In this document: positions 9-63,889 of the stretch, in pieces
Layout of the letters: every line of letters starts with the position of its first letter
Position numbering within the stretch: the first letter of the stretch is position 1
Origin: an uncultured virus (IMG/VR IMGVR_UViG_2706795104_000001)
Taxonomy: Duplodnaviria > Heunggongvirae > Uroviricota > Caudoviricetes > Herelleviridae
IMG/VR virus record: IMGVR_UViG_2706795104_000001
Span: 88,779-152,778 of that record
Strand: one strand, 5' to 3'
DNA: 64,000 nt
The notes under the pieces: model-generated
What the model was told of the DNA's origin: nothing
The model's input: the letters and a program-made list of their open reading frames with translations, nothing else
Database searches by the model: none
Position numbers and translations under genes: made by a program

Positions 9-2348
9 ATGGCAGAGGTACAAATTATTAACCGAGGTAATTTTATTGAGTTTTACGATCCGAAAAAGGTAGAGAACTATCTTCGTAGGTACACTCCTGA
101 GGGAGTAAACGTAAATAGTATCGTAGGAAGTGTAACAGAGTTCGTAGAGTTAGAGGAGAACGTTACAAGTCTTAAAATCCAACAAGAACTCTACTCTATT
201 ACAGAAGGTTTAATCTCCGTACGTGAGTCGTATTGGCAAGACGTAGCAGGATGTATTAAAGCAGATATCCTACGTAAAGAGGTATACAACAACCGTGGCT
301 TTGAAACTGGTTTAAAACGAGTTCTAGAGTTAGGTTACGAAGGAGAACAGTATGCAGACTTCTTCAAGAAATACTCTGACGAAGAGATTGCAGAGTTAGA
401 AAAACATATTAACGAAGACAATGATTACTTCGTAAACCATGTAGGTGTACATATTGCTTATGACCGTTACACAACTTCAGTTCCAGTTAAGAAAGAACAG
501 AACGGTAAAGAAATCACTGTAGGCGTTAAGAAGATTGAAACACTTCAAGAACGTTACATGATTGTCTCAATGTTCCTACATCAAAACGAAACAAAGGATC
601 GTATTGCAAAAGTTATCAGAGGTTATAATCGTACAGGTGCTACAGACTTCACTCCTGCAACTCCGACATTCATGAATAGCGGCCGACCGAACGGTAACTT
701 ATCATCTTGTTTCGTAGGTATGACAGACGACTCATTAGACGATATCTACCGTGAAGCAGACCAATTTGCGAAGGTTTCTAAAAACGCAGGTGGTTACGGA
801 TTATACTTCGGTAAAGTTCGTTCATTAGGTTCTAGTATTCGTAAGAAGCCAGGTCTAAGTTCAGGTGCAGTACCATTCATGAAACTATTTGATGTAACGG
901 CAGGTACAGTAGACCAGCAGTCAAAACGTCCAGGAGCAGTTACAATCACATTAGATGTGTGGCACCGTGACACTAGTTCATTCTTAAAAACACCTTTAGA
1001 TAACACAGTACTAGAGAAGCAAATGCATAAAATCTTCTTAGCAGTATCTCTCCCTGATTTATTCTTCCGTAAGTTACAGAAGAACGAACAGTGGTACCAA
1101 TTCGATCCGAAAGAAGTACAAGACATCATGGGATGGGGTTTAGAAGACTGCTATGATGAGAGAAAAGATGGTGGAACTTTCTCAGAACGTTATGAGCAAT
1201 GTGTACAAGCATACAAAGCAGGTCACTTACAGTTAGTAACAATTACAAACCCACTTACGATCCTAGCGGAAATTAACAAAACACGTATTGAAAAAGGACA
1301 TCCGTTCTTATTCTTCCGTGATGCAGTTAACCGTGATAATGCGAATGGTGGTATGATTTACTGCTCTAACTTATGTACGGAAATTGCAATCCCAATGTCA
1401 ACTCCTGCAATCGTTACAGAGAAGATTAAGAAAGACGGAGAAGACATCATGGTTCAATATACACGACCAGGTGACATCCCAACTTGTAACTTATCTTCTA
1501 CCAACCTTAGCAAAGTAGCGAAGGTGCGTATCGCAGGTGGAGATTGGAGAGCATACTTAGCAGAACTTATTCCAGTTCAGTACCGTATGTTAGCTAACGT
1601 AGTATTACTAAACGAGCAAGACGAAATGCCACAAACGAAAATCAGTTCTCTTCGTAAGCGTGAAGTAGGATTAGGTACTATGGGTCTAGCTCATGCACTA
1701 GCAATCTCTCACATTGCTATCGACAGTGAAAAAGCTCTTGAATGGCAAAATGAAGTATTCGAAGAAATTGCTTACCAAGTAATTAAAGCAAGTATGGAAC
1801 TAGCGAAAGAAACTGGTGACATCGCTCCTCACTTCCCTAAAACAAAGTGGGCAGATGGTAGCTATATCGAATACAAGTTTAAAGCACACAGTGAAGATAA
1901 AGAACGTTGGGAAGCTCTTAAACAAGACATCATTAAATATGGGCTGTATTCTACAATCCATATGGCTACGGCACCAACTGAAACTATCTCTTACATTGCG
2001 AATACAACGGCAGGTAATGATCCTATCTACGGTAAAGAGTATACGTTAGAGAAAGCAGGAATCAAAACGAACATGGTAGCTCCTGGAATCGGTATGGACA
2101 ACATCTTCTACTACAAAGATGCGTTCATCATCAAGAAGGACATGTTCCTAAAAGGCGTAGGTATTCGTCAACGTTGGATCGACCAATCTATCTCAACTAA
2201 CTTATACTACATCAAGGACAACCTACAAGCATTCGACATGATTCAAGATTATATCACTGCTTGGAAAGAGGGAGCTAAAACAATCTACTACCATCGTTCA
2301 CAAACAACGAAAGCTTACGAGCTTGCTTGTGAGTCATGCGCTGGTTAA
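9..2348 (+). CDS. nrdA: Ribonucleotide reductase class I large (alpha) subunit
   Basis: TPATPTFMN, LSSCF, SNLCTEI, TCNLSS, APTETIS and C-terminal CESC redox pair; class Ia vs Ib not resolved. Confidence 0.95.
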   Translation: MAEVQIINRGNFIEFYDPKKVENYLRRYTPEGVNVNSIVGSVTEFVELEENVTSLKIQQELYSITEGLISVRESYWQDVAGCIKADILRKEVYNNRGFETGLKRVLELGYEGEQYADFFKKYSDEEIAELEKHINEDNDYFVNHVGVHIAYDRYTTSVPVKKEQNGKEITVGVKKIETLQERYMIVSMFLHQNETKDRIAKVIRGYNRTGATDFTPATPTFMNSGRPNGNLSSCFVGMTDDSLDDIYREADQFAKVSKNAGGYGLYFGKVRSLGSSIRKKPGLSSGAVPFMKLFDVTAGTVDQQSKRPGAVTITLDVWHRDTSSFLKTPLDNTVLEKQMHKIFLAVSLPDLFFRKLQKNEQWYQFDPKEVQDIMGWGLEDCYDERKDGGTFSERYEQCVQAYKAGHLQLVTITNPLTILAEINKTRIEKGHPFLFFRDAVNRDNANGGMIYCSNLCTEIAIPMSTPAIVTEKIKKDGEDIMVQYTRPGDIPTCNLSSTNLSKVAKVRIAGGDWRAYLAELIPVQYRMLANVVLLNEQDEMPQTKISSLRKREVGLGTMGLAHALAISHIAIDSEKALEWQNEVFEEIAYQVIKASMELAKETGDIAPHFPKTKWADGSYIEYKFKAHSEDKERWEALKQDIIKYGLYSTIHMATAPTETISYIANTTAGNDPIYGKEYTLEKAGIKTNMVAPGIGMDNIFYYKDAFIIKKDMFLKGVGIRQRWIDQSISTNLYYIKDNLQAFDMIQDYITAWKEGAKTIYYHRSQTTKAYELACESCAG

Positions 2349-2362
2349 TAAGAAATACACTG

Positions 2363-2391
2363 TACAGACTTGCTTCTATAGTAAGTCTGTA
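2363..2391 (+). other. Intergenic hairpin between RNR genes
   Basis: TACAGACTTGC-ttctata-GTAAGTCTGTA inverted repeat. Confidence 0.5.
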
Positions 2392-2433
2392 TTATACTAT
2401 AACTGTGACTATACATATAAAGGAGTTAGAACC

Positions 2434-3564
2434 ATGAAAGCAGAAAATAGAACGAAAATTAAATTACTACAACCGAAGAAGAGTATGTTGTACCCTAGTA
2501 AAATACTAGCAAATGACGGAGTTAATAGTCTGAACTGGAATGATATTCGTTTCCCTCAGTTCCACACGTTCTACGATAAACTGTTAGCTAATTTTTGGCG
2601 TGCAGAATCAGTTAAAATGAGCAAGGATGACCTTGACTATAAATCAGCACCCGAGAAAATTCGTAAAGCATATAACTTAGGATTAGGTAACTTAACTGCA
2701 ATTGATGTTGTTCAGACACGTATGGCAGCTATTCTATCGGCCGCTATTACCGATCCTTCGATTAGTGCATGTTATGCCGTAGCATCACAACAAGAAGCAG
2801 TACATACACAGTCGTATTCGTACGCATTACTGGACAAGTTAGACAAAGCAGAACAGAACCGTATCCTGCGTGAAGCCGTAGCAGACCCTGTAGCGCAAGA
2901 ACGTAATAGCTTAGTAGTAGAAGTCCTAGAAGAGATGGAAGACGCTTATAAGCTTTATGTGTTCAACGAAATGACTGCTCATGAGTTCTCTAAATACCTA
3001 GCACGAGGACTAATTGCAATGTCAGTATTAGAAGGAGTAAACTTCTATTCTACATTTATGATGTTCTACTACATCCAACACCGTTATAGTATCCTAGATG
3101 GTACTGTAAGTATCATTCGTTACATCCATAAAGATGAGTTCCAACATACTTACCTGAATGGTCATACACACCGTGCTCTATTAACGGATTACAAAATGAC
3201 AGAAGAGGAAGAAGCAGAACACATCGAGTGGGCTACTAACTTTATCAAGGAGAACGTAAAGCGTGAGATTGCTTACGGATTGGATTTATTCACTACAATC
3301 AACGTACGTCCTACAGAGATAGAAACATATATTACTTGGTTAGGTAATGTACGTGCTCAATCTCTAGGTCTACCATTACCGTTCCCTGATGAGAAGTTCG
3401 CTGCTAACGAGAACCCGATCCCTTGGATGAAAGCATTTGACGATAGCCGTTTAGACTCAGGACAGAAGCAAGACTTCTTCGAGAAGACCGTAACGCAATA
3501 CGAACAGGCAAGTGCAACCAATACAGAAATGAACGTAACAGATATCAGCAAGCTACAGTTCTAA
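2434..3564 (+). CDS. nrdB: Ribonucleotide reductase class I small (beta) subunit
   Basis: FW, EAVH..SY radical Tyr, LEG..FY, DEFQH metal ligands, DFFE tail; start moved to ATG 2434 after AAGGAG. Confidence 0.93.
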   Translation: MKAENRTKIKLLQPKKSMLYPSKILANDGVNSLNWNDIRFPQFHTFYDKLLANFWRAESVKMSKDDLDYKSAPEKIRKAYNLGLGNLTAIDVVQTRMAAILSAAITDPSISACYAVASQQEAVHTQSYSYALLDKLDKAEQNRILREAVADPVAQERNSLVVEVLEEMEDAYKLYVFNEMTAHEFSKYLARGLIAMSVLEGVNFYSTFMMFYYIQHRYSILDGTVSIIRYIHKDEFQHTYLNGHTHRALLTDYKMTEEEEAEHIEWATNFIKENVKREIAYGLDLFTTINVRPTEIETYITWLGNVRAQSLGLPLPFPDEKFAANENPIPWMKAFDDSRLDSGQKQDFFEKTVTQYEQASATNTEMNVTDISKLQF

Positions 3565-3590
3565 GAGAGGAAATTTCCTCTCTTTTTTTT
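3564..3590 (+). terminator. Rho-independent terminator
   Basis: AGAGAGGAAA-TTTCCTCTCT followed by T-run. Confidence 0.85.
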
Positions 3591-3601
3591 TATTTTTATT
3601 G

Positions 3602-3631
3602 TTGACTATTGGACAACTCACATGTTATAGT
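3602..3631 (+). promoter_or_regulatory. sigmaA-type early promoter
   Basis: TTGACT-N18-TATAGT with TG extension. Confidence 0.75.
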
Positions 3632-3664
3632 AATTATAGAAGTTAAGAAAAGGAGTTGTTACAA

Positions 3665-3907
3665 ATGAAAGTATTAACGAAAGAGCGTTACGGTAACTTT
3701 GAAGTGTTCACAGAAAATTTTAGTATGGAAGTGTCCATACACATTGAGACAGGTATAGTGAACAAAGTAGAAATCAGTGAATCGGCTTTGTTCAACCAAG
3801 CAGTAACGATCCAAGAACTAGATTCATTTGTTGGTAAGGCAAGAGCAGAGTACCGCAAGTTTATGGGTAAGAAATACGTAGATAAGTTTACTATAGGAGG
3901 AGAATAA
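3665..3907 (+). CDS. Hypothetical protein
   Basis: ORF with AGGAG RBS. Confidence 0.7.
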   Translation: MKVLTKERYGNFEVFTENFSMEVSIHIETGIVNKVEISESALFNQAVTIQELDSFVGKARAEYRKFMGKKYVDKFTIGGE

Positions 3908-3908
3908 T

Positions 3909-4226
3909 ATGAAAATGCCTTGGGAATGTGAAGATTGTGGTCATAAAGAATTAGCAAGTCCGTTTATGACATTCGTGTTATGTCCTGAATGTGATTCTAT
4001 AAACTTCTTCCACGGTTCGATAATCGAGGAAGAGGAAGAAGAAGTGGACGAGCATGTAACTGTCTTCGAGGATCAATACGGAGAGAAGATTACAGTTGTA
4101 AACGAGATAGATGACGAGGGTGACATTAACTTGTTACCTTCCGATAGAAACTTATTTTTTAGTAAAGAAGAAGCTATTGAACTAGCAAAACATATTTTAA
4201 GAATTTGTGGGGAGGATTCGGAATGA
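3909..4226 (+). CDS. Hypothetical Zn-ribbon protein
   Basis: CEDC and CPEC motifs, acidic linker; GGAGG RBS. Confidence 0.7.
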   Translation: MKMPWECEDCGHKELASPFMTFVLCPECDSINFFHGSIIEEEEEEVDEHVTVFEDQYGEKITVVNEIDDEGDINLLPSDRNLFFSKEEAIELAKHILRICGEDSE

Positions 4227-4372
4227 AACTGAAGCATTTAGTACTCGATTACATTAATACGATTAAAAATCGAGACTGCCACCATTACGTTTCATACTCG
4301 TATCATGAACTGGATAAGAAAGCTCGTGAAATTGAAGAAAAAATCATGGAAAAATTAGAGGAGGAAGAGTAA
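4223..4372 (+). CDS. Small hypothetical protein (49 aa, not in ORF track)
   Basis: GGAGG RBS, ATGA overlap, fills the gap exactly (MKLKHLVLDY...). Confidence 0.65.
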   Translation: MKLKHLVLDYINTIKNRDCHHYVSYSYHELDKKAREIEEKIMEKLEEEE

Positions 4373-4373
4373 A

Positions 4374-5135
4374 ATGAAAACAGTAGATTTAAGCGTAACA
4401 GGTATGAGTTGGATGGAAGAGAGAACAATCTTATTAACACCGTATGGTAGCCGTTTATACGGAACGGACACAGAGAACTCGGATTGGGATTTCAAAGGAG
4501 TTTGTATCCCACCAAAAGAGTACTTCTTAGGACTAGAGACATTTAATGAGTATAACAACACTGGTGGTAAAACATTCAAGAACACGAAGGACGATGTTGA
4601 CATCAATATCATTCATGTAAGTAAGTTCGTAAAAGATGCTATGCACGGAGTACCGAATAACATCGAAGTATTATTTGCTAGAGAGCAAGACTATATCATC
4701 TTGACTGAACTTGGACAAGTCCTACGTGATAACCGACACCTGTTCCTATCAAAACAAATCATCACGAAGTTTGGAGGGTACACACGATCCTTAACAAACA
4801 AGCTGAAGAATGGTGCAGGTCGTCAAGAGTTAGTCGAAGAGTTTGGTTATGATACAAAGAACTTTATGCAAGGTGTACGACTACAGTTGTCTGCAATCGA
4901 AATCCTAGAAACAGGTGATTACAGTACATACCGTCCTGAGCGTGACTTCTTACTAGGATGTCGAAACGGGGAATACACTCGTGAGCAAGCACTAGCATTA
5001 GTAGAATCATATGATGAGAGGTTACAAGTAGCGCACGAGAATTCGAAGCTGCCTGAGAAACCTGACTATAACAAAATCAACGGTATGTTAATGGCTATCA
5101 ATGAAGACGCATTGAAGTTTGGTATCCACTCATGA
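4374..5135 (+). CDS. Pol-beta superfamily nucleotidyltransferase (YcgL/RlaP-like)
   Basis: GSRLYGT...SDWDFKGV signature. Confidence 0.85.
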   Translation: MKTVDLSVTGMSWMEERTILLTPYGSRLYGTDTENSDWDFKGVCIPPKEYFLGLETFNEYNNTGGKTFKNTKDDVDINIIHVSKFVKDAMHGVPNNIEVLFAREQDYIILTELGQVLRDNRHLFLSKQIITKFGGYTRSLTNKLKNGAGRQELVEEFGYDTKNFMQGVRLQLSAIEILETGDYSTYRPERDFLLGCRNGEYTREQALALVESYDERLQVAHENSKLPEKPDYNKINGMLMAINEDALKFGIHS

Positions 5136-5374
5136 GCGTAATGTACGTGTGGGACATACTGTATAAGCAAGGTGAGAAGGTAAAGTCTGTTACATTAAAT
5201 GGGATCAATCCTATTAAAGTAGTAGAGACCCTACAACGTATCCAGTACGATAAGAGTAAGAGGATAGTAGTTTACTGCGTGGATGCAGTAGGACACATCA
5301 ATAAATCGACTGGTGAGATTGTAACACTACCGTTAATGTTCGAAGGTAAGAAAGCAAAATATAGTACTAAGTAG
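5132..5374 (+). CDS. Hypothetical protein
   Basis: ORF coupled to upstream gene (ATGA). Confidence 0.6.
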   Translation: MSVMYVWDILYKQGEKVKSVTLNGINPIKVVETLQRIQYDKSKRIVVYCVDAVGHINKSTGEIVTLPLMFEGKKAKYSTK

Positions 5375-5402
5375 AGCAGGTTTCCACAACCTGTTCTTTT
5401 TT
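5373..5402 (+). terminator. Rho-independent terminator
   Basis: AGAGCAGGTT/AACCTGTTCT stem plus T-run. Confidence 0.7.
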
Positions 5403-5524
5403 CTGTTTATGGTATAATGAAGGTAACGGTATACCATTGCTTGTGAAGTCTGAAAATTCAGAATTGGAGAGATAAAAATGGGACATAGAAAATGGCAAGA
5501 AGAAATTGGACGAGGTGAAATCTA

Positions 5525-6283: not shown

Positions 6284-6284
6284 G

Positions 6285-6584
6285 ATGGTTGTGAATAGAA
6301 AAGAGATTGCAAGACGTGCGGCCCACATCGGTAACTACGACATTGGTGGGACGGAAGAACTAACAAAGATAATCGAAGACGTGATTGTTAACGCTCTAGC
6401 AAATGGAGAGAGTGTGAAGTTCGGTAAAGTATGTAAATGGGAGATCGAGGAAGTACCTAAGAAGAAAGCATATGACGGTCTAAATAAAAAGTATTTTACT
6501 AGACCAGCGAAACGCATACCGAAATACAAACCGTTAAAACGGATTACGGACATCGAGCTACCAGTACAAAAGAAAGAGGAGTAA
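6285..6584 (+). CDS. HU/IHF-like DNA-binding protein (TF1-like)
   Basis: NRKEIA, L..GESVKF, PAKRIPKYKP: HU-fold pattern. Confidence 0.85.
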   Translation: MVVNRKEIARRAAHIGNYDIGGTEELTKIIEDVIVNALANGESVKFGKVCKWEIEEVPKKKAYDGLNKKYFTRPAKRIPKYKPLKRITDIELPVQKKEE

Positions 6585-6602
6585 CGATCCTCTTTTTTCT
6601 TT
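6573..6602 (+). terminator. Rho-independent terminator
   Basis: AAGAGGA/TCCTCTT stem plus T-run. Confidence 0.7.
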
Positions 6603-6613
6603 GTAATTTATTG

Positions 6614-6642
6614 TTGACTTATAGACAAAGTTACAGTAATAT
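6614..6642 (+). promoter_or_regulatory. sigmaA-type early promoter of the methyltransferase cluster
   Basis: TTGACT-N17-TAATAT. Confidence 0.75.
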
Positions 6643-6685
6643 TATCTACAGATACAGAATACACTATTAAGTTGAGGAGGTAATC

Positions 6686-7708: not shown

Positions 7709-7709
7709 T

Positions 7710-55715: not shown

Positions 55716-55726
55716 AGAAATAAAGG

Positions 55727-56310: not shown

Positions 56311-56348
56311 TAAAAAAAAACTACAACATACCAAAGGGAGAGATTATA

Positions 56349-58385
56349 ATGGAATTCAAACAATTTAAGAAAGACCTAAAAGCAAACTTTAAGGAAATGG
56401 TAAAAGATACAGACCACTTATATGAGGTAGAAGTGGACAAGGATGTAATGTGGGACTTGTACCTAGATAGTCATACTGAAGGGACTAACGAAGTATTCCG
56501 TGAGCGCAGACAAGCTGATTGCAGTGCTTGTAAACAGTTTATCCGAAATATGGGGAACTTAGTCGTTATCAAGAATAACAAGGTTACTACTATTTGGGAT
56601 TTAGAAACGAACAGTGCGTACCAACCAGTAGCAGATGCTCTAGCAAAATTCATTAAGAGTCACGAAGTAACAGATGTATGGGTAAACAAGTTTAGTAAGA
56701 TTGGTGTTGATAGCAACCTAGAGGATTACCAAGGACAAGTCCTAACTTGGCAACACCTTAACGTAGATATCCCTGCTAAATTTGTTACTCGTAGCAGCAA
56801 CTCAGAAGCTGAAATCCGTGGCGGTCTACGAGATACACGAAATGTGTTCTTACGATCTCTAATTGAAATCTCTGAAGAAAGCTTAATGACTGTATTAGAA
56901 CTTATCCAATCAAATACATTGTACAAAGGTGCAGAGTGGAAAGCAGTATTAACTCAGTTCCTTGCACACAAACGAGCATTCCTTAACTTACAAACAGTTT
57001 CAGAAAGACAGAACTACGCTTGGGAGCAGTCAGTGAAAATCGGTGGTGCGATGGGTCGTATCCGTAACCACAGTATCGGTACTTTGCTTGTTAATATCAG
57101 TGAAGGGATGGAGTTAGACCGAGCAGTTAAAGCGTATGAAGTGATTGTAGCACCAGCTAACTACAAACGTCCTAAAGCAATCTTTACGAAGAAGATGGTT
57201 GAAGAAGCTGAAAAAATGAGCTTAGAGATGGGCTTCCAAGATTCATTCGGTAGACGATTCGCAACGCTAGATGACATCACTGTAAATAACATCTTATTCT
57301 CTAACAAGGATGCGGCTAAACGAATCGCAGGAGCAGGTATTTTTGCAGAAGCATTGAATGCAGTGACAGTTAACCCTAAACAATTCACACGAGTTGAGGA
57401 AATCTCAATTGAGAACTTCATTAACAATGTACTACCAACGGCAAGAGAACTTGAAGTATATCTAGAAAACAAACAGTCTAGCAACATGGTATCTCTGATT
57501 GCACCTGAGAATAAAGATGCTAAAACAATGTTCAAGTGGAATAACGGATTTAGCTGGGCTTACACAGGTAACATCACTGATAGCTCTATGAAAGAGAATG
57601 TAAAGCGTGCAGGAGGTAAGGTCAATGGTGTGTTAAGATTCTCGATCCAATGGAACGATGATGAGTTTGACGGTAATGACTTAGATGCTCACTGTATCGA
57701 ACCAGGTGGCAACTTAATCTACTACGGAGAAAAGTTTAACAGACGTACTGGCGGCCGATTAGACGTGGATATCATCCATCCTAGCCGTAATGTACCTGCC
57801 GTAGAGAACATCACATGGGGTGATAAGCGCAACATGGACGAAGGGACTTACAAATTCCTTGTGCATAACTTTAACAACCGTGGTGGTAAGTCAGGATTCA
57901 GAGCTGAAATTGAGTTTGATGGACAAGTATTCTCATTCGACTACACGAAAGCATTACGAAATAATGAGAAAGTTGTTGTGGCAGAAGTATACTTTGACGG
58001 TACTAACTTCACAATCAAAGAGCTATTACCATCTAGTGTGTCAACTAAAGACGTATGGGGCTTAAAAACAAACCAATTCGTTCCTGTATCTACAGTGATG
58101 TTCTCTCCTAACTATTGGGACGAGCAGCAAGGAATCGGGCACCGTCATTACTTCTTCATGCTGAAAGATTGCGTGAACCCTGAGCAACCAAACGGTTTCT
58201 ACAATGAGTTCCTTAAAGAGGAGTTGATGCAACACAAACGAGTATTCGAGTACCTTGGAAGCCGTACGGCAGTAAAAGATGTAGAGGATCAGTTATCAGG
58301 TTTAGGTTTCTCATCCACGAAGAGAGCAGAATTAGTAGTTAAAGTTAAGGGTCTAACAGAAAGAGTAGTAAAAGTAAAATTCTAA
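56349..58385 (+). CDS. Large hypothetical protein with YfaP/TerD-like DLD.H...LDVD...VENI domain
   Basis: N-terminal CSAC; W....NDLDAH, LDVD, AVENITW. Confidence 0.7.
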   Translation: MEFKQFKKDLKANFKEMVKDTDHLYEVEVDKDVMWDLYLDSHTEGTNEVFRERRQADCSACKQFIRNMGNLVVIKNNKVTTIWDLETNSAYQPVADALAKFIKSHEVTDVWVNKFSKIGVDSNLEDYQGQVLTWQHLNVDIPAKFVTRSSNSEAEIRGGLRDTRNVFLRSLIEISEESLMTVLELIQSNTLYKGAEWKAVLTQFLAHKRAFLNLQTVSERQNYAWEQSVKIGGAMGRIRNHSIGTLLVNISEGMELDRAVKAYEVIVAPANYKRPKAIFTKKMVEEAEKMSLEMGFQDSFGRRFATLDDITVNNILFSNKDAAKRIAGAGIFAEALNAVTVNPKQFTRVEEISIENFINNVLPTARELEVYLENKQSSNMVSLIAPENKDAKTMFKWNNGFSWAYTGNITDSSMKENVKRAGGKVNGVLRFSIQWNDDEFDGNDLDAHCIEPGGNLIYYGEKFNRRTGGRLDVDIIHPSRNVPAVENITWGDKRNMDEGTYKFLVHNFNNRGGKSGFRAEIEFDGQVFSFDYTKALRNNEKVVVAEVYFDGTNFTIKELLPSSVSTKDVWGLKTNQFVPVSTVMFSPNYWDEQQGIGHRHYFFMLKDCVNPEQPNGFYNEFLKEELMQHKRVFEYLGSRTAVKDVEDQLSGLGFSSTKRAELVVKVKGLTERVVKVKF

Positions 58386-58423
58386 TAAAAAAAAAACTAA
58401 TAAAAGAGGAGTAGTGAATTATT

Positions 58424-58819
58424 ATGACAAAATCAATCGAAAAATTATTTGAGGTAGCTACACGTACAAAACTTCGTTTCCCATACCGTGGTATGGTTTC
58501 AGTAGAGGACTTATGGGACTTAACACCAACTCAGTTAGATTCAGTGTTCAAGACACTGAACGCTCAGTTGAAAGCAGTGTCAGAAGAGAGCTTACTTAAA
58601 GTGAAAACACCTGCTGATAAAGTAGTTGAAGTACAAATCGAAATCGTAAAATACATTGTGTCTGTGAAAGTAGCAGAGCAAGAAGCTAGATTACAAGCAC
58701 AAGCATTAAAAGAGCAAAAACAAAAGTTAATGTCAGTCCTAGCTACTAAAGAGGACGAAGAGTTACAAGGTAAATCTGCTGAAGAAATCCGAGCTATGAT
58801 CGCAGAGTTAGATAAGTAA
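58424..58819 (+). CDS. Coiled-coil hypothetical protein
   Basis: LFE.ATR.KLRF..RG..SVEDLWDL. Confidence 0.75.
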   Translation: MTKSIEKLFEVATRTKLRFPYRGMVSVEDLWDLTPTQLDSVFKTLNAQLKAVSEESLLKVKTPADKVVEVQIEIVKYIVSVKVAEQEARLQAQALKEQKQKLMSVLATKEDEELQGKSAEEIRAMIAELDK

Positions 58820-58896
58820 TAGGTGTAGGGGGTAACTCCCCTTCACTCTACTAAAATAAAAAAAAAATAAACTTACATAAAAGGGGATAATTAATT

Positions 58897-59976
58897 ATGA
58901 AAATCGTAAACTTTGGAAGCACATTTAAAATCTACGGAGACGACTTAAAAACATTTGACCAATTACCTGCTGCTACATATAAGGTAGATTTCCACCCAAT
59001 GCAAGGTTTCTCCTTAGAGAAGATTGACAACTTCGAATCTAAGGAACAAAAGATTTACGGAAGCCACCAAGACAAGATTGATAAGGTGTTACGATCCTAC
59101 GGCAAGTTTGAACGCAGTCTAGGTATCATTCTAAGCGGCCACAAAGGTATGGGTAAATCAATGTTCGTTCAATTAATTGCAGAAGCAGTAGTAGCTAAAG
59201 GTATTCCTGTAATCATGGTTACGAAAGCATATCCAGGGATCGCAGACTTCATTGAAGAGATTGACCAAGAAGCGTTAGTAGTGTTCGATGAGTTTGAGAA
59301 GATGTTCAACCCACGTAACGATAAAGCAGAAACACAGGACAACCTGTTAGGTCTATTCGATGGTACGTCTCAGAAGAAGCGTATGTACGCTATCACAGTT
59401 AACGACTTATACAAAGTGAATGAGTTCATGTTAAGTCGTCCTGGTCGATTCCACTACCACATTCGTTTCGACTACCCAACGGCTACGGAAATCGAAATCT
59501 ACTTAAAAGATAAGATTGATCCTAAATACTACGGACAAATTAAACAGGTTGTTAGTTTCGCAAACCGTGTGAAACTGAACTACGATTCATTACGTGCCAT
59601 CGCATTCGAATTAAATGAAGGGTATCCGTTCCGTGCTGCTATCGGTGACTTAAACATCTTAGCAACTGATTCACAACGTTACGATGTAAAAGTTACACTA
59701 GGTAACGGTAAAGTATTCGACTTAAAACGTAAAGAAATCAACTTATTCAGTGAAGAGGTTCGTCTAGACGGATACATGGGGGGAGGAGACTACTTCTCAT
59801 TATCATTCAACCCTGAGAACATCGAAGAAGATTTAGACAAAATGACAGTGGACGGAGACTACGTGAAAACGGAGACTACTGACCAAGACGGAGACCCAGC
59901 AGAACCAGTTGAGATCGTATCTCTTGTTATTACAAAGGTACAAGAAACTGGTGTTAACTACAAGTTAGCGCACTAA
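58897..59976 (+). CDS. AAA+ ATPase
   Basis: GHKGMGKS Walker A, VVFDEFEK Walker B, RPGRF arginine finger. Confidence 0.9.
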   Translation: MKIVNFGSTFKIYGDDLKTFDQLPAATYKVDFHPMQGFSLEKIDNFESKEQKIYGSHQDKIDKVLRSYGKFERSLGIILSGHKGMGKSMFVQLIAEAVVAKGIPVIMVTKAYPGIADFIEEIDQEALVVFDEFEKMFNPRNDKAETQDNLLGLFDGTSQKKRMYAITVNDLYKVNEFMLSRPGRFHYHIRFDYPTATEIEIYLKDKIDPKYYGQIKQVVSFANRVKLNYDSLRAIAFELNEGYPFRAAIGDLNILATDSQRYDVKVTLGNGKVFDLKRKEINLFSEEVRLDGYMGGGDYFSLSFNPENIEEDLDKMTVDGDYVKTETTDQDGDPAEPVEIVSLVITKVQETGVNYKLAH

Positions 59977-59989
59977 GGCGGGACAAGCT

Positions 59990-60199
59990 ATGAAAGTTAT
60001 TAAACTAAGTGACGGTAACTTTGTGCAGGAGATTAACATAGCAGGACATATCATTATATGTCCTCTCTCCTACCAAGCTAAAAAGTTTACTAAAGATTCT
60101 GAATTAAAACCGTATACAGACTTTTTGGATAAGTCTTACAGTCCATTCATCTATAAGGTTGTGAACTTCAAATATAGTACAGAGGAGATAGAGAAATGA
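59990..60199 (+). CDS. Hypothetical protein
   Basis: ORF within operon. Confidence 0.6.
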   Translation: MKVIKLSDGNFVQEINIAGHIIICPLSYQAKKFTKDSELKPYTDFLDKSYSPFIYKVVNFKYSTEEIEK

Positions 60200-60369
60200 A
60201 ACAACATTTAACTGCTACATTTATTTTTGATCCACTCGATGTTATAGACTTCAACAAGGTTAACAGTAAAGTTGAGGAGTTGAAAGCGTCAGGTTACACA
60301 GAAAAAGTTCGTAATATGAATAAAGAAGGACAAGTCGTAATCAAGCTAGAACATGAGGAGGAGCTGTAA
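60196..60369 (+). CDS. Small hypothetical protein (57 aa, not in ORF track)
   Basis: GAGGAG RBS; ATGA and TAATG couplings on both sides. Confidence 0.65.
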   Translation: MKQHLTATFIFDPLDVIDFNKVNSKVEELKASGYTEKVRNMNKEGQVVIKLEHEEEL

Positions 60370-61454
60370 TGACAGTTTACGAACATAGAGACGTAGCATA
60401 TAACTTTGACGAAGTAATGAAAGATATGCAGAAGTTAAAGGAGCATACGTTACGTCATGTTAAAAAGACTGAAGAGATGGTAGGCATTCAACCTAAACAA
60501 TCTCTGAAGACATTACATATTCACGGAGTAGAAGTTAAACGTACAACTGGTACAGGTTACTACGATAAGAGTTTGTACGTCTCTATCACCCTACCAAAAG
60601 CTGCTTATGAAGCTATCGAAGACAAAACGATTATCTCGGGATTCCTTTTCACAGAGACATATAACAAACTCCACATCAAGTTAAAGATTATCGAGTCCAA
60701 CAAGGATCGTTTAGAGGAGTTCAAGAAAGCTATTCACGCAATCGGTTCACTAGACCTGATTGCACACCTAGAGAACATCGAAATTGCACGACAAAACTCT
60801 CAACTAGTAACGAACATCTTCAACCTGTTAGAGCGTGCAGGTGTTAGTACAAGTTATTATGGATACAAAACGAAGCGGTCCAGTAAACAGTCACAACAAT
60901 ACTATAACTTCCCTTCTGAGATTCGTGGACAGATTGCTACTAGTTATAGAGAGGACACGTTAGAGGTTCGTAAGCAAGAATTACTGAAACAAGTGGACAA
61001 CATTTGGAATCAGGAAATGAAAAAGGTTGAGGATGAGCGTAAGGAGAAAGAGAGAGCTGAGAAAGAGAAGCAAGAGAACCGTACACTGGCTCTACTACTA
61101 GCTAAGTATGACTTAGATATTTCTCAGGATTGGGATGACCTGTTAGATACTATCATCGAGAAGAATAAGTATCTATACCTTGCTCACCGTCTAGAGCAGA
61201 ATCGAGGAGATTGGAACGATGGTTGCTCTTACGCTGAATCAGGGTTAGATAACTTCACGATTGAAACTGAAGAGGACAAGAAAATCCATGAGGATATCTA
61301 CTACTATATCAGTACATGGGATCAGCATATGGATGGTCGAGTATTCCGTGACTGTGAGTACGACTATGGAACTATCTTTGGTATAGCAGCTGAGAAAGAT
61401 AGTGACCTGTTTACAGACTATGAAACTGTAAAAGAAAAGGTAGACCGCTGGTAA
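60369..61454 (+). CDS. Hypothetical protein
   Basis: 361 aa; GAGGAGG RBS. Confidence 0.8.
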   Translation: MTVYEHRDVAYNFDEVMKDMQKLKEHTLRHVKKTEEMVGIQPKQSLKTLHIHGVEVKRTTGTGYYDKSLYVSITLPKAAYEAIEDKTIISGFLFTETYNKLHIKLKIIESNKDRLEEFKKAIHAIGSLDLIAHLENIEIARQNSQLVTNIFNLLERAGVSTSYYGYKTKRSSKQSQQYYNFPSEIRGQIATSYREDTLEVRKQELLKQVDNIWNQEMKKVEDERKEKERAEKEKQENRTLALLLAKYDLDISQDWDDLLDTIIEKNKYLYLAHRLEQNRGDWNDGCSYAESGLDNFTIETEEDKKIHEDIYYYISTWDQHMDGRVFRDCEYDYGTIFGIAAEKDSDLFTDYETVKEKVDRW

Positions 61455-61555
61455 GAGAGGATGGTATAATTAGGTGAGTGGTTATTAGAGTTATTTGGCG
61501 CAATACTAGACTTAGTAGGGGCTATCGTCTCTAACGATGAGGAGGAGGAAAAATA

Positions 61556-61885
61556 ATGAAAATAGTTGATGAGAAGGTTTACGAGGATTGGAAAGCGAAG
61601 AATACAGACGGTTATGGTGCAGGTATCTTCCGATATGCGGAGAAGTGGGCTAACTTAATGGAGGAAGAGATTACAAAAGGTTCTAGAATTAGAGACGTAG
61701 CTCAGAAGCTGTCACACGATGCAGATACAGAAGGTATTACAGGGTTCATGTATGGGGCTGCCGTTAGTATTCTCTCACAATGTTGGGTTCACGGAGAAGA
61801 GTTGAAGAAGTGGCACAACAAAGAGTACGACTATGAGGGTGAAGGAGTAGCTAACCCTGCACTAGTTACGATTACAAAGAAGTAG
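61556..61885 (+). CDS. Hypothetical protein
   Basis: GGAGG RBS. Confidence 0.75.
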   Translation: MKIVDEKVYEDWKAKNTDGYGAGIFRYAEKWANLMEEEITKGSRIRDVAQKLSHDADTEGITGFMYGAAVSILSQCWVHGEELKKWHNKEYDYEGEGVANPALVTITKK

Positions 61886-61897
61886 AGGAGGATTGCA

Positions 61898-62665
61898 ATG
61901 TTCAATTTCATCGGTTGTGGTAGTGCATTCAACACAGAATTAGGTAATAACAGTGCTTACATCAAGGAGGACGGCATTCTATTCATGATTGACTGCGGTA
62001 GTGCCAACTTCGATAGAATCAGACGTAGCGGCCTGTTAGAGGGCGTAGAAGACATTGTAGTATTGATGACCCATACACACCCTGACCACGTAGGATCGTT
62101 AGGAGATTTAATCTTCTACAGCTACTATTGTATGGGGCAGATGAAAGTACCTCAGTTAACTGTATACGCACCATATGACATGAAGATTAGTAAAGTACTA
62201 AAGGGTATGGGAGTTGAACGAGAGTGCTACAGACTTATTCAGTTCGATAACTCTAACGAGTACCCACCTGGATTCCATAAAGACGGGTTCCATATCAAGT
62301 TCCAAGTAGTACCTAACCGTCATGTACCTGAGTTACTGTGTTACGGTTACTTGATTACATATAAAGATAAAACTATCTATTATAGTGGAGACTCTAACAA
62401 CATTTCACCGTTCATCCTACGTATGCTAGAAGACGGAGAGATTGACTACTTCTATCAGGATACTTGTCAAGCAGACTACGAAGGTAATGTCCATCTATCA
62501 CTGAAGAAGCTAAGTGAGTTGGTGTGGTCTAACCGTGATAAAGTATACTGTATGCATTTAGACGAAGGATTCAACCGAGAGCAAGCAGAAGAGTTAGGGT
62601 TCAATGTTGTACAACCTTCTATCGTAGTTCCTGAAGGTAAAGTTACTATTGTTGAGATTATATAA
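61898..62665 (+). CDS. Metallo-beta-lactamase-fold phosphodiesterase, Apyc1-like (anti-Pycsar)
   Basis: G.GSAF...NNSA, IDCG, THTHPDH, H, YSGD, VH.SL, MH pattern as recalled for Apyc1. Confidence 0.75.
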   Translation: MFNFIGCGSAFNTELGNNSAYIKEDGILFMIDCGSANFDRIRRSGLLEGVEDIVVLMTHTHPDHVGSLGDLIFYSYYCMGQMKVPQLTVYAPYDMKISKVLKGMGVERECYRLIQFDNSNEYPPGFHKDGFHIKFQVVPNRHVPELLCYGYLITYKDKTIYYSGDSNNISPFILRMLEDGEIDYFYQDTCQADYEGNVHLSLKKLSELVWSNRDKVYCMHLDEGFNREQAEELGFNVVQPSIVVPEGKVTIVEII

Positions 62666-62695
62666 TAACTATATGACAAGGGGAGAAGAAATAGA

Positions 62696-63889
62696 ATGAA
62701 AAGTTCACTATTTGTACCTGATAAAATTAACGTGGGGTATCAAGAGCGTGGTGGTACGTATACAGGTAAGTTAGCATACGTAATCTACTTCGACCAAAAA
62801 GGTAAGCTTCGTAAAGAAGTGTCCTGGAATAGCTGGCGGGACCAAAAGATTGATAACCTTATTACAGATAACGTACCAACTTCAGGATTCGTACTGAATA
62901 AGAAAGCAGGAGACTATAAGTACGATTGGAACCATCGTCAAGCTTATGCTCGTGTATACGATCCTCGTGGGTTTGAGTTCGAGATTACTATTGACAACCT
63001 GTTATACATACTAGAATGTTGCGACATGTTCAAAGGGAAAGGGATCGACGGTGAGTTAGTATATGCTTGGGAAGGTAAAGACCTTGTACTACTACCTGTA
63101 AACTCTCCTGACTATAAAGAAATCATGGAGTATAACAAAATACTGAAAGAGAACAAGACTATTAAAGGTAAAGACCTGAAATTAGGGTATAAGTACCTAG
63201 ACAAAGATGGTAGAGAGTGGGTCTACTTAGGACGCTTCCATAAGTACGATGGTTATACAGGTGAGAAGAAGAAAAACAAATTCTACTTCTTTGCAAAATA
63301 CCATAAATACTCTTGGAAGTCCGAAGGTGAATGGAGCATTGATACTGTGTCTTCTCTAGGGCAAAAGTTCATTACAGAGTCTCCTGACGGTTGCGTAGAG
63401 AACTATGCGGAGTTAGTAGAAATGTTGGAGCGTGACCGAGAATACTCTCCCATCGACCTTTCGAAAGATGAATATGTGCCGCTAACATTCGAAGAGTTCT
63501 TACAGGACTTAAAAGACAAGGAGAAAACCTACGATCCGTTGTCAGGTTGGTTCTATAGTGAAGTTCTACAAAGGAAATTAAAGCACACTGAAGGTTACTA
63601 CAGTTACTATTACCGAAATGATAATGTTAAAGTAGTACCTAGTAAAGTTAAGCAACTAAAAGAAGGAGCTTCTCGATGGTCTAACGACTATGAGTGGGTT
63701 CAGGAGTACAACAACGAAGAAGAGAAGCGACCGATATTTGCAATAACGAACGGGGAGCACCCACATAGCTATTACACTGATTACAAAGAATACTTTAAAG
63801 GTACGTTAGAGGAAGTATTTGAATACTTAAAACCTGCCACTAGACATGTATATCTAGCGAACGGGAAGTTATACAGAAAAGACCGATAA
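62696..63889 (+). CDS. Hypothetical protein
   Basis: 397 aa; TYTGKLAYVIY, DPRGFEFEI motifs. Confidence 0.8.
   Translation: MKSSLFVPDKINVGYQERGGTYTGKLAYVIYFDQKGKLRKEVSWNSWRDQKIDNLITDNVPTSGFVLNKKAGDYKYDWNHRQAYARVYDPRGFEFEITIDNLLYILECCDMFKGKGIDGELVYAWEGKDLVLLPVNSPDYKEIMEYNKILKENKTIKGKDLKLGYKYLDKDGREWVYLGRFHKYDGYTGEKKKNKFYFFAKYHKYSWKSEGEWSIDTVSSLGQKFITESPDGCVENYAELVEMLERDREYSPIDLSKDEYVPLTFEEFLQDLKDKEKTYDPLSGWFYSEVLQRKLKHTEGYYSYYYRNDNVKVVPSKVKQLKEGASRWSNDYEWVQEYNNEEEKRPIFAITNGEHPHSYYTDYKEYFKGTLEEVFEYLKPATRHVYLANGKLYRKDR

What the first reader, a model, noticed from the sequence alone, without database searches (positions are those of the whole stretch)
56..63540. GATC occurs almost only as YGATCC (mostly CGATCC), over-represented and spaced about every 0.5 kb
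Seen (manual tally, may miss a few): about 131 GATC sites. About 78 are CGATCC/GGATCG and about 40 are TGATCC/GGATCA. I found no GGATCC, AGATCT or TGATCA and only one GGATCT. About 8 of the 12 other exceptions are CGATCT/AGATCG, one C-to-T change away from CGATCC. At roughly 38% GC, base composition predicts about 16 CGATCC/GGATCG, and A/T-flanked GATC should dominate. The motif appears even in AT-rich intergenic DNA (6585, 36634, 44755, 54475). Several of the longest gaps contain a near-variant site (e.g. 29539, 56823). Inference: this goes beyond restriction avoidance and looks like a positively maintained, non-polar mark, reminiscent of cyanobacterial HIP1. Candidates are a methylation target of one of the phage MTases that shields GATC or marks self DNA, or a binding site for a genome-organising protein.
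Basis: partly seen in the sequence, partly recalled or inferred. Interest (0 to 1): 0.8.

Follow-up and report, generated by a model that had tools for sequence, protein, structure and literature searches.

The report
Evenly spaced licensed GATC hexamer array
In this Bacillus cereus phage the short DNA words GATC and GGCC, which sister phages have purged completely, survive only inside two lopsided six-letter words that are kept in excess, and one of them is spread evenly along the genome like a deliberate mark.

Summary
The window has 131 GATC: 78 CGATCC, 40 TGATCC, no GGATCC/AGATCT/TGATCA. The window is the right 64 kb of a 152.8-kb Caeruleovirus genome (Herelleviridae), and the pattern holds across that genome and in 9 of 9 Caeruleovirus genomes examined.

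Against synonymous-codon shuffles, CGATCC is 181 vs 60±6, TGATCC is neutral, and other GATC is 28 vs 372.

YGATCC sites are non-polar, far more evenly spaced than chance (CV 0.63-0.77), better conserved than other hexamers, and show signs of compensatory turnover.

New context:
- Four of five sister-genus phages tested, all lacking the C5-methyltransferase homologues, carry 0-1 GATC; all five carry 0 GGCC.
- In Caeruleovirus all 537 GGCC are GCGGCC, also enriched.
- 47 of 62 CGCG sit as CGCGATCC.

Best reading: two genus-specific C5-methyltransferases license these asymmetric hexamers against host restriction, and YGATCC is additionally selected as an evenly spaced mark. Methylation and the mark's use are inferred, not shown. 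I found no prior description.

The parts
56..63537 (.). Array of 118 YGATCC sites (78 CGATCC/GGATCG, 40 TGATCC/GGATCA). 58 are on the + strand and 60 on the - strand. Mean spacing is 542 b.
   Evidence: Searches give the list of sites, the flanks and the spacing test.
6686..7708 (+). MT1: a 340-aa C5-cytosine DNA methyltransferase present in every Caeruleovirus genome examined. It is a candidate writer of one of the two licensed hexamers.
   Evidence: Pfam PF00145 matches full length with E 2.3e-50. The nearest solved relatives are M.HhaI and a 395-403-aa CpG-type methylase. It is 85-99% identical in relatives. tblastn finds no hit in 5 sister-genus genomes.
7710..8375 (+). MT2: a 221-aa short C5-methyltransferase-like protein, present in every Caeruleovirus genome examined. 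It is a second candidate writer.
   Evidence: Pfam PF00145 matches the N-terminal half only, E 3.3e-8. PHROG 757 'DNA methyltransferase' matches with E 5e-53. It is 78-98% identical in relatives and absent from 5 sister-genus genomes.
8421..9404 (+). MT3: a 327-aa C5-cytosine methyltransferase that varies among genus members. The motif pattern does not depend on it.
   Evidence: Pfam PF00145 E 6.2e-66. It is absent from Bc431v3, which has the full pattern, and only 49% identical in BM15. No k-mer difference tracks it.
679..62033 (.). 25 GCGGCC/GGCCGC sites. These are all 25 GGCC sites of the window. GCGGCC is the second licensed and enriched asymmetric hexamer.
   Evidence: One search covers the window. 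Searches cover the genome: 59 of 59 GGCC are GCGGCC, and 59 sites compare with 10.7 in shuffles.
42328..42335 (+). CGCGATCC: one of the only two CGCG in the window. It overlaps the CpG of a CGATCC site.
49269..49276 (-). GGATCGCG (CGCGATCC on the - strand): the other CGCG of the window. It again overlaps the motif.

Best explanation
The window belongs to a virulent Bacillus cereus-group myophage of the genus Caeruleovirus. Its hosts punish GATC and GGCC so hard that sister genera have removed GGCC entirely and, in four of five tested, virtually every GATC.

Caeruleoviruses carry two genus-specific C5-cytosine methyltransferases, MT1 and MT2. I propose that these enzymes recognise two asymmetric hexamers, YGATCC (5'-GGATCR-3' on the other strand) and GCGGCC. 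I propose that each places a 5-methylcytosine inside the embedded GATC or GGCC. For the first motif this is most likely the C of GATC on the GGATCR strand. For the second it is most likely the inner C of GGCC on the GGCCGC strand. That 'licenses' these contexts against the host endonucleases, while every other context stays forbidden.

On top of this licence, the sites are positively maintained. CGATCC and GCGGCC are kept at 3-5 times the codon-aware expectation. YGATCC sites (CGATCC, with TGATCC as an accepted variant) are held as an orientation-independent array. The chance of meeting the next site rises with distance from the last one, up to about 0.6-1 kb. This is what selection for 'at least one mark per roughly 0.5-1 kb, extra marks useless or costly' would give.

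Shown: the statistics, the genus-specificity, the co-occurrence with MT1/MT2, the conservation, and the overlap footprint. Inferred: the methylation itself, the enzyme-motif assignment, the protective effect, and the use of the evenly spaced mark.

My best guess for the use is a GATC-specific strand or self signal read over about 1 kb, such as methyl- or nick-directed repair or recombination on replicating phage DNA. It is probably not a general 5mC effect.
For: 1. Enrichment and avoidance under codon-preserving shuffles.
- CGATCC 181 vs 60.4 +/- 5.9; other GATC 28 vs 372.
- Among all hexamers only GCGGCC (59 vs 10.7, z 19) and CGATCC (z 17) stand out; the next is z 9.
- The motif occurs in all reading frames and both orientations relative to genes.
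- Encoded residues are no more diverged from sister genera than other codons.

2. The taboo and its exceptions.
- 5 genomes from 4 other B. cereus-group genera, all without a tblastn hit to MT1-3, were tested.
- Four of them have GATC 0, 0, 0 and 1 (about 555 expected). All five have GGCC 0 (about 204-246 expected).
- In 9 of 9 Caeruleovirus genomes GATC is 87-93% YGATCC, and 537 of 537 GGCC are GCGGCC.

3. MT1 and MT2 are present in all Caeruleovirus records listed. They are among the few genus-specific genes of 100 aa or more.

4. Overlap footprint, 9 genomes pooled.
- CGCG has 4-11 sites per genome (about 240 expected).
- It occurs as CGCGATCC in 47 of 62 cases; by the both-strand count that is 48 observed vs 67 expected given the motif, so it is not avoided there.
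- CCGG overlapping the 3' CC is 0 vs 67, and ATCGAT overlapping is 8 vs 154.
- For GCGGCC, overlapping GGNCC and CGGCCG are at expectation (126 and 129 vs 107).
- CGCG and CCGG overlaps are 2 vs 107 and 0 vs 21.

5. Spacing.
- CV is 0.63-0.77 in 9 of 9 genomes (z -3.8 to -6.4). Six control hexamers have CV 0.84-1.34.
- The hazard rises from 0.3-0.6 per kb below 100 b to about 2.5-3.5 per kb at 0.6-1.25 kb.
- TGATCC sites avoid CGATCC sites (p 0.001-0.018).
- There is no strand polarity: runs z 1.5, and per-strand CV 0.80 vs 0.86 +/- 0.07 for random thinning.

6. Conservation.
- CGATCC is kept in 147 of 168 aligned sites vs BM15 (all hexamers 74.8%), 110 of 167 vs Bc431v3 (51.4%) and 119 of 170 vs PK16 (48.0%).
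- The lineage-specific share is 122 of 1107 (11%) vs 16-28% for 9 control sets.
- Lost sites lie nearer to newly gained ones: median 861 b vs 1860 b for random positions and 2162 b for retained sites.
Against: - No modification data exist. I found no read data that could show methylation or nicks (only assembled contigs, small shares).
- Neither methyltransferase could be tied to a motif. Distant homologues in two other phages show different k-mer patterns, and no genus member lacks MT1 or MT2.
- An asymmetric site and a single enzyme give methylation on one strand only. Whether that suffices to block the host enzymes is assumed.
- ATCGAT overlapping the same CpG is not licensed. This needs a special plea: that enzyme is insensitive to hemimethylation, or the methylase dislikes T at -1.
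- The compensation signal is partly explained by uneven divergence. 8 of 9 control motif sets also show lost sites nearer to gained sites (ratio 0.60-0.85; one control at 1.0; YGATCC 0.46).
- GCGGCC is enriched but only weakly regular (CV 0.81-0.86, p 0.05-0.12). It is not more conserved than average vs the closest relative (44 of 56).
- No reader of the mark was found. Pfam Vsr and MutS gave no hit, and MutH gave only a sub-threshold hit with an internal stop.
- Host restriction specificities were not tested.
Confidence: 0.55

Rival explanations
1. Licence plus a neutral ratchet. The hexamers are methyltransferase targets and merely tolerated. Their excess and even spacing are a by-product of a methyl-directed repair bias of the kind Elhai proposed for cyanobacterial HIP sequences. 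New sites are fixed preferentially where no marked site lies within about 1 kb, until the density saturates. No function of the array is needed.
For: - Elhai's model predicts saturation near one site per about 1000 nt and no gain close to an existing site (PMC4390886, section 3.4, read).
- That matches the density here (one per 0.53-0.61 kb) and the hazard curve.
- Both candidate methylase motifs are enriched.
- No dedicated reader gene was found.
Against: - The phage has no Pfam Vsr or MutS match, and only a sub-threshold MutH match.
- One-step neighbours that a T:G repair bias should drain are at expectation: CAATCC 1.07, CGATTC 1.08.
- A generic 5mC-directed ratchet predicts that GCGGCC and YGATCC sites repel each other, and they do not. 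In this genome 19 GCGGCC lie within 100 b of a YGATCC vs 19.5 expected, and the same holds in 4 of 4 genomes.
- Sites are conserved above background. Xu et al. used the same argument for selection on HIP1 (PMC5861425, abstract).
Confidence: 0.17
2. Programmed nick sites. Because the motifs are asymmetric, only one strand is methylated. Host GATC- and GGCC-specific endonucleases then cannot cut the duplex but nick the unmethylated strand. The phage thereby carries an evenly spaced set of strand-specific nick sites, used for nick-directed repair, recombination or strand-displacement synthesis.
For: - The footprint suggests modification on one strand only. CGCG over the CpG is licensed, while CCGG over the 3' CC is not.
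- The fully symmetric double motif GCGGCCGC is absent: 0 vs 21 expected in 9 genomes.
- Spacing is specific to GATC-type sites.
- Recalled, not checked here: Sau3AI and HaeIII are classic examples of enzymes that nick the unmodified strand of hemimethylated sites.
Against: - There is no evidence of nicks, and no raw reads are available.
- It depends on the host carrying the enzymes.
- Repulsion reaching several hundred bases and independent of relative orientation is not what opposed or tandem nicks alone would predict.
- Two methyltransferases could equally methylate both strands.
Confidence: 0.1
3. Protein-binding array. YGATCC, perhaps the 8-mer with its flanks, is the site of a phage genome-organising or protective DNA-binding protein. 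The protein occludes GATC, and methylation is irrelevant.
For: - The spacing is even and orientation-independent.
- Flanking positions -1 and +6 are biased and more conserved than neighbours: 0.93-0.95 vs about 0.88.
- An HU/IHF-like gene sits directly upstream of the methyltransferases.
Against: - The HU-like gene does not appear in the genus-specific list. Short stretches of it match other Bacillus phages at the DNA level, and record notes liken it to genes of Enterococcus and Listeria phages.
- The genus-specific genes of 100 aa or more gave no DNA-binding family, apart from a sigma-like protein.
- Occlusion would have to be complete at entry into the cell.
- It does not explain the parallel GCGGCC rule or the CGCG footprint as simply as base modification does.
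Confidence: 0.08
4. No positive maintenance. The pattern is only what is left after several independent avoidances: RGATCY, TGATCA, CGATCG and other six-letter palindromes.
For: - Many six-letter palindromes are absent: ATCGAT 0, CTTAAG 0, AGATCT 0, GGATCC 0, TGATCA 0.
- Phage BCP78 shows such a residue pattern. GATC is present but AGATCC, AGATCT, GGATCC and TGATCA are not among its listed contexts.
Against: - The non-palindromic contexts AGATCA (6 vs about 78), CGATCA (3 vs 58) and CGATCT (16 vs 71) are also purged.
- Four of five sister-genus genomes tested have 0-1 GATC in any context.
- Avoidance cannot raise CGATCC to three times expectation, space it evenly, or conserve it.
Confidence: 0.02

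Closest known systems
HIP1 (GCGATCGC) and alternate HIPs of cyanobacteria
   Same: - A short GATC-containing word is far above codon-aware expectation.
- It is found in all reading frames and conserved between genomes.
- It is linked to resident orphan cytosine methyltransferases.
- Its density is of the order of one per 0.5-1 kb.
- Its function is unresolved.
Sources: PMC4390886 abstract and section 3.4; PMC5861425 abstract.
   Different: - The host here is a virulent phage, not a cellular chromosome.
- The word is an asymmetric hexamer, not a palindromic octamer.
- The excess is about 3-fold, not 15-300-fold.
- It sits inside an otherwise near-total GATC taboo.
- The regularity is short-range (below 1 kb even spacing) rather than a 10-90 kb periodicity.
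Restriction-site avoidance in phages (for example GATC-free staphylococcal Herelleviridae; recalled) as surveyed by Rusinov et al. 2018 (PMC6286503; search listing and start of abstract only)
   Same: - GATC, GGCC, CCGG, CGCG and many six-letter palindromes are depleted or absent.
- Four of five sister-genus phages tested show the textbook form with 0-1 GATC, and all five have no GGCC.
   Different: Avoidance removes sites.
Self-protecting phage C5-methyltransferases of Bacillus phages (SPbeta, phi3T, SPR and rho11s type; recalled from memory)
   Same: Phage-encoded PF00145 enzymes presumably shield the phage from host GGCC-type restriction.
   Different: - Those enzymes methylate the whole palindromic target (GGCC, GCNGC and others), so every context is protected.
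- Here only one asymmetric six-letter context is exempt and the rest of the genome still avoids the core.
- The specificities of MT1 and MT2 are unknown.
Dcm/Vsr very-short-patch repair and the CCWGG excess of E. coli (recalled)
   Same: A cytosine-methylase target is raised above expectation.
   Different: - No Vsr homologue was found.
- There is no depletion of the T-containing one-step neighbours outside the GATC taboo.
- VSP repair does not give even spacing.
Dam GATC / MutH strand signal of E. coli (recalled; summarised in PMC4390886 section 3.4)
   Same: - The signal is orientation-independent and contains GATC.
- Its useful range is about 1 kb, which would favour coverage without clustering.
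   Different: - The methylation is adenine, not cytosine, and the site is palindromic.
- No MutH or MutS is encoded by the phage.
- Bacillus mismatch repair is not known to be methyl-directed (recalled).

Membership tests
Restriction-site avoidance | The word is depleted relative to a codon-aware expectation. | tested here: met
   All GATC 298 vs 504 +/- 16. GATC outside YGATCC 28 vs 372 +/- 14.
Restriction-site avoidance | The same word is depleted in unrelated or related phages that share the hosts. | tested here: met
   GATC is 0, 0, 0 and 1 in 4 of 5 sister-genus genomes, and GGCC is 0 in 5 of 5. BCP78 keeps 328 GATC.
Restriction-site avoidance | The hosts encode endonucleases of that specificity. 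| not tested
   I could not obtain a B. cereus-group genome handle.
HIP-like iterated motif | Strong over-representation that codon usage does not explain. | tested here: met
   CGATCC 181 vs 60 (z 17-20) and GCGGCC 59 vs 10.7 (z 19). The magnitude is about 3-5.5 fold, much less than HIP1.
HIP-like iterated motif | Palindromic GC-rich word. | tested here: not met
   Both words are asymmetric. The palindromic relatives GGATCC and CGATCG are absent or nearly so, and GCGGCCGC is 0 vs 21 expected.
HIP-like iterated motif | Sites conserved between genomes beyond background. | tested here: met
   CGATCC 87.5% vs 74.8%, 65.9% vs 51.4% and 70.0% vs 48.0%.
HIP-like iterated motif | A methyltransferase specific for the word or its core is present. 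| tested here: inconclusive
   MT1 and MT2 co-occur with the pattern in 9 of 9 genomes and are absent from 5 of 5 sister-genus genomes. Their specificities are unknown.
Phage self-protecting C5-methyltransferase system | A full-length PF00145 enzyme is encoded by the phage. | tested here: met
   MT1 matches profile positions 2-324 of 324 with E 2.3e-50. MT3 matches 2-322. MT2 matches only the N-terminal 113 positions.
Phage self-protecting C5-methyltransferase system | 5-methylcytosine is present at the surviving sites on virion DNA. | not testable with these tools
   Only indirect evidence exists: the CGCG overlap footprint. The Bc431v3 paper reports poor or no cutting by several enzymes, as 'data not shown' (PMC3601020, passage seen).
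Vsr-type biased repair | A Vsr endonuclease gene is present. | tested here: not met
   PF03852 gives no match at E <= 1 in the 152.8-kb genome.
Vsr-type biased repair | The C-to-T neighbours of the target are depleted. | tested here: not met
   CAATCC 1.07, CGATTC 1.08 and TGATCC 1.36 of zero-order expectation. CGATCT 0.24 is confounded by the GATC taboo.
Polar guide sequences (Chi, KOPS/SRS type) | Strand or orientation bias along the genome. | tested here: not met
   135 + and 135 - sites in the genome. Runs test z 1.5. Gap lengths are alike for all four orientation pairs.

The most novel reading that the evidence does not exclude
The phage methylates only one strand of two asymmetric hexamers on purpose. 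This converts the host's own GATC- and GGCC-specific restriction endonucleases from killers into strand-specific nickases. The evenly spaced YGATCC array is then a programmed set of nick or strand signals, roughly one per 0.5 kb, that the phage uses for repair, recombination or replication of its DNA. It would be a virus turning a host defence enzyme into part of its own DNA metabolism.
Probability: 0.1. Interest if true: 0.92.

Novelty: new variant of a known kind. Interest (0 to 1): 0.8.

Why it matters
- It would be the first HIP-like, evenly spaced, methylase-linked DNA word in a virus. Phages can be recoded, their methylases deleted and fitness measured within days. That makes the long-open question 'what are such iterated methylation words for?' directly testable.
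- The 'overlap footprint' records which other forbidden words survive only where they overlap the motif. It is a purely computational way to guess a methylase's target, and even the modified base, and it could be applied to other phages.
- Practically, Caeruleoviruses are proposed for biocontrol of B. cereus. Their host range may hinge on these two enzymes.

Tried and rejected
1. Assigning motifs to enzymes by homologues.
- A 42.5-kb phage record has an MT2 homologue (62% identical) and phage BMBphi has an MT1 homologue (40%). Both show ordinary or different GATC/GGCC contexts, so this was uninformative.
- The large protein search for MT1 gave only unnamed or generically named homologues.
- PDB relatives (M.HhaI, a CpG-type methylase) do not fix the specificity. 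MT2 has no PDB hit.

2. Variable enzymes. No k-mer difference among four genomes tracks the presence of MT3 or the extra 420-aa methylase.

3. Looking for a reader.
- Genus-specific ORFs gave no nuclease or DNA-binding family except a sigma-like protein and Tad4.
- The Atlas search of the 361-aa genus-specific protein gave nothing.
- Single-sequence structure models of that protein and of MT2 were too poor to use (pLDDT 40.5 and 38.6), so no fold search was run.

4. Mutation spectrum as a methylation tracer.
- Transitions at the CpG of the motif are the commonest losses: G2>A 19, C1>T 15.
- CpG C>T is also raised genome-wide (4.6% vs 3.1%), so this is not diagnostic.

5. Read data. Only assembled contigs with shares of 0.20 or less were offered. 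They cannot show ends, nicks or modification.

6. Host check. Host restriction genes were therefore not examined.

7. Dam-type methylase as the reason BCP78 tolerates GATC. PF02086 found nothing in BCP78 or the four other sister genomes.

9. Literature. Searches for CGATCC + bacteriophage + Bacillus, Bc431v3 + methylase (27), GATC + B. cereus + phage + restriction + avoidance (28), Bc431v3 (55), Thurquoise (68), Caeruleovirus (69), Bastillevirinae + GATC (109) and a general motif query (110) found no description of this pattern. Supplementary files were not consulted.

Full report
**What the window is.** The 64-kb window is bases 88,779-152,778 of a 152,778-b virus record. Its closest named relatives are Bacillus phages BM15/Hobo (about 92-95% identity), Bc431v3, JBP901, PK16 and Deep Blue. 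All are Caeruleovirus, Bastillevirinae, Herelleviridae, infecting the B. cereus group. Three tandem C5-cytosine methyltransferase genes lie at window 6686-7708 (MT1, 340 aa), 7710-8375 (MT2, 221 aa) and 8421-9404 (MT3, 327 aa). They sit just after an HU/IHF-like gene and before the DNA polymerase gene.

**The observation.**
- 131 GATC in total: 78 CGATCC/GGATCG, 40 TGATCC/GGATCA, 8 CGATCT/AGATCG, 2 TGATCG, 1 CGATCG, 1 GGATCT and 1 TGATCT.
- No GGATCC, AGATCT or TGATCA.
- The four 'intergenic' sites exist and lie outside my ORF calls. 29539 is CGATCG. 56823 is not a GATC, and the variant there is CGATCT at 56853.

In the whole genome there are 298 GATC: 181 CGATCC, 89 TGATCC, 16 CGATCT and 12 others. 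CGATCC is the most over-represented hexamer against base composition (181 vs 43).

**More than chance.** I called 219 crude ORFs (90% of the genome) and shuffled synonymous codons within each gene 300 times.
- CGATCC 181 vs 60.4 +/- 5.9 (maximum 76).
- TGATCC 89 vs 71.1 +/- 7.5.
- CGATCT 16 vs 70.6.
- GATC in all other contexts 28 vs 372 +/- 14.

So there are three classes: enriched (CGATCC), tolerated (TGATCC) and purged (the rest).

The motif lies in every frame and both orientations relative to genes. The residues it encodes are no more diverged from sister-genus orthologues than other residues, for example 0.566 vs 0.561 identity to phage Riley. The signal is therefore at the DNA level and made mostly by synonymous choice. 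255 of 270 sites are in ORFs (244 expected), so it is not a promoter or terminator element.

**A second word obeys the same rule.** I ranked all hexamers against 200 shuffles. Two outliers appear: GCGGCC (59 vs 10.7, z 19) and CGATCC (z 17). The third is at z 9. Every GGCC in the genome is GCGGCC: 59 of 59 here and 25 of 25 in the window.

**The comparative frame.** I fetched eight more Caeruleovirus genomes (seven whole, 140 kb of BMBsp2) and five genomes of other B. cereus-group genera.

In 9 of 9 Caeruleovirus genomes:

| Word | Count per genome |
|---|---|
| CGATCC | 174-207 |
| TGATCC | 75-101 |
| Other GATC | 20-42 |
| GGCC that is GCGGCC | 537 of 537 pooled |

In the five sister-genus genomes:
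- Anthony (Bastillevirus), Riley and vB_BcgM (Bequatrovirus) and BPS10C (Wphvirus) have 0, 0, 1 and 0 GATC (about 555 expected).
- Those four have 0 GGCC (about 210 expected).
- BCP78 (Tsarbombavirus) has 328 GATC in ordinary contexts but 0 GGCC.
- None of the five has a tblastn match to MT1-3.

MT1 and MT2 are present in all Caeruleovirus records seen. MT3 and a further 420-aa methylase come and go without changing the pattern. GATC and GGCC are thus under extreme counter-selection in this host range. Only the genus that owns MT1 and MT2 keeps them, each in one asymmetric hexamer.

**A footprint of base modification.** 47 of the 62 CGCG in nine genomes read CGCGATCC, including 5 of 5 in this genome and both in the window.

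Overlapping words, 9 genomes pooled:

| Motif | Overlapping word | Observed | Expected | Reading |
|---|---|---|---|---|
| CGATCC | CGCG over the CpG (CGCGATCC) | 48 | 67 | not avoided |
| CGATCC | CCGG over the 3' CC | 0 | 67 | avoided |
| TGATCC | CCGG over the 3' CC | 0 | 32 | avoided |
| CGATCC | ATCGAT over the 5' side | 8 | 154 | avoided |
| GCGGCC | GGNCC | 126 | 107 | at expectation |
| GCGGCC | CGGCCG | 129 | 107 | at expectation |
| GCGGCC | CGCG over the 5' GCG | 2 | 107 | avoided |
| GCGGCC | CCGG over the 3' CC | 0 | 21 | avoided |
| GCGGCC | GCGGCCGC (double motif) | 0 | 21 | avoided |

The simplest reading is a modified cytosine at the CpG of CGATCC. The modified base must also lie inside GATC and must also exist in TGATCC. 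It is therefore most likely the C of 5'-GGAT**C**R-3'. In GCGGCC it is most likely the inner C of GGCC on the GGCCGC strand. This is inference from sequence statistics. It rests on recalled sensitivities of Sau3AI-, HaeIII- and BstUI-type enzymes to 5mC. The unlicensed ATCGAT overlap does not fit neatly.

**Even spacing.**
- In the window the 118 sites have CV 0.640 against 0.991 +/- 0.090, and none of 10,000 random placements was as regular.
- Genome-wide the CV is 0.63-0.77 in nine genomes, z -3.8 to -6.4. Six control hexamers of similar abundance give 0.84-1.34.
- Gaps under 100 b are 9-15 per genome against 38-50 expected.
- The rate of meeting the next site climbs steadily, from 0.3-0.6 per kb just after a site to about 2.5-3.5 per kb at 0.6-1.25 kb. 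Both close pairs and long gaps are therefore short of expectation.
- TGATCC sites keep their distance from CGATCC sites: median 318-386 b vs 237-258 b, p 0.001-0.018. They belong to the same system.
- GCGGCC sites do not avoid YGATCC sites: in this genome 19 lie within 100 b vs 19.5 expected, and the same holds in 4 of 4 genomes. The interaction is specific to the GATC-type word, not to methylation in general.
- Orientation plays no part. There are 135 + and 135 - sites, the runs test gives z 1.5, and all four orientation pairs have similar gaps. Per-strand CV is 0.80, within the 0.86 +/- 0.07 of random thinning.

**Conservation and turnover.**
- CGATCC is retained at 147 of 168 aligned positions in BM15 (all hexamers 74.8%), 110 of 167 in Bc431v3 (51.4%) and 119 of 170 in PK16 (48.0%).
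- TGATCC is slightly above background.
- CGATCT, the C-to-T product that re-enters the taboo, is unstable: 5 of 12 and 5 of 13 retained.
- Across four genomes, 11% of YGATCC sites are lineage-specific, against 16-28% for nine control sets.
- Positions where a site was lost lie closer to lineage-specific sites (median 861 b, 26% within 300 b) than random positions (1860 b, 12%) or retained sites (2162 b, 6%).
- Controls show a weaker form of the same effect, with a lost/random ratio of 0.60-1.0 vs 0.46. Part of it is therefore rate heterogeneity.
- Positions -1 (A or C; G and T rare) and +6 (A rare) are biased and more conserved than their neighbours. The effective word may be eight letters.

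**What does not explain it.**
- A Vsr-type repair bias is unlikely. There is no Vsr, and the non-GATC one-step neighbours are at expectation.
- The phage encodes no recognisable MutS or MutH.
- Residual multi-palindrome avoidance fails, because non-palindromic contexts are also purged and because of the excess.
- Elhai's methyl-directed ratchet (PMC4390886, section 3.4) predicts the density and the lack of close pairs. It remains the main neutral rival. The missing cross-repulsion with GCGGCC and the conservation argue against its generic form.

**Verdict.** It is genus-wide, and it is one half of a two-word (arguably three-word) system tied to two genus-specific cytosine methyltransferases. 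Protection by methylation is well supported but indirect. Positive maintenance and even spacing of YGATCC are shown statistically, but its use is unknown. I found no description of it in eight literature searches. The Bc431v3 paper only notes two C5 methylases of unknown impact and odd restriction digests.

Noticed in passing
window 61556-61885 (+): A 109-aa protein matches Pfam Tad4, a type I Thoeris inhibitor, with E 8.9e-43. It is genus-specific and sits next to a 361-aa genus-specific protein of unknown function at 60369-61454.
   Followed up: partly
whole genome, and 9 Caeruleovirus genomes: The symmetric double motif GCGGCCGC (a NotI site) is absent, 0 vs about 21 expected, although GCGGCCG occurs 129 times. 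This is unexplained. It may mean that sites methylated on both strands are disfavoured.
   Followed up: no
whole genome: ATCGAT (0 vs about 50) and CTTAAG (0 vs about 50) are absent in Caeruleovirus. They are at normal frequency in the five sister-genus genomes (63-93 and 41-49). CCGG and CGCG are also purged here, but not in Bequatrovirus. Each genus has its own list of forbidden words.
   Followed up: partly
whole genome: Several asymmetric words are almost absent against codon shuffles: ACCAGA 1 vs 70, CCAGAA 1 vs 59, ACGACG 0 vs 54, GAGGCA 1 vs 55 and CTCCAG 0 vs 45. This suggests avoidance of non-palindromic (Type IIS, III or BREX-like) targets.
   Followed up: no
L054-L061 (phage BCP78): BCP78 keeps 328 GATC, but AGATCC, AGATCT, GGATCC and TGATCA are not among its listed contexts. 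It has 0 GGCC, CCGG and CGCG. It has no C5-methylase homologue and no D12-class Dam. How it tolerates GATC is unexplained.
   Followed up: partly
window 6573-6598: The CGATCC at 6585 lies in a short inverted repeat (GAGGA...TCCTC) followed by a T run, just after the HU-like gene. It looks like an intrinsic terminator whose stem includes part of the motif (read from the sequence).
   Followed up: no
window 9678-12794 (+): The family A DNA polymerase carries a weak N-terminal match to the uracil-DNA glycosylase superfamily (PF03167, E 1.5e-4, below the curated cut-off).
   Followed up: no
window 3909-4226 (+): A genus-specific 105-aa protein has a weak PHROG match to a Lar-like restriction alleviation protein (E 1e-5).
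   Followed up: no
L007-L015 (phage BM15): BM15 has 8 AGATCC/GGATCT sites against 0-2 in the three other genomes compared. Its MT3 is only 49% identical to the one here. This may be a different licence in the making.
   Followed up: no
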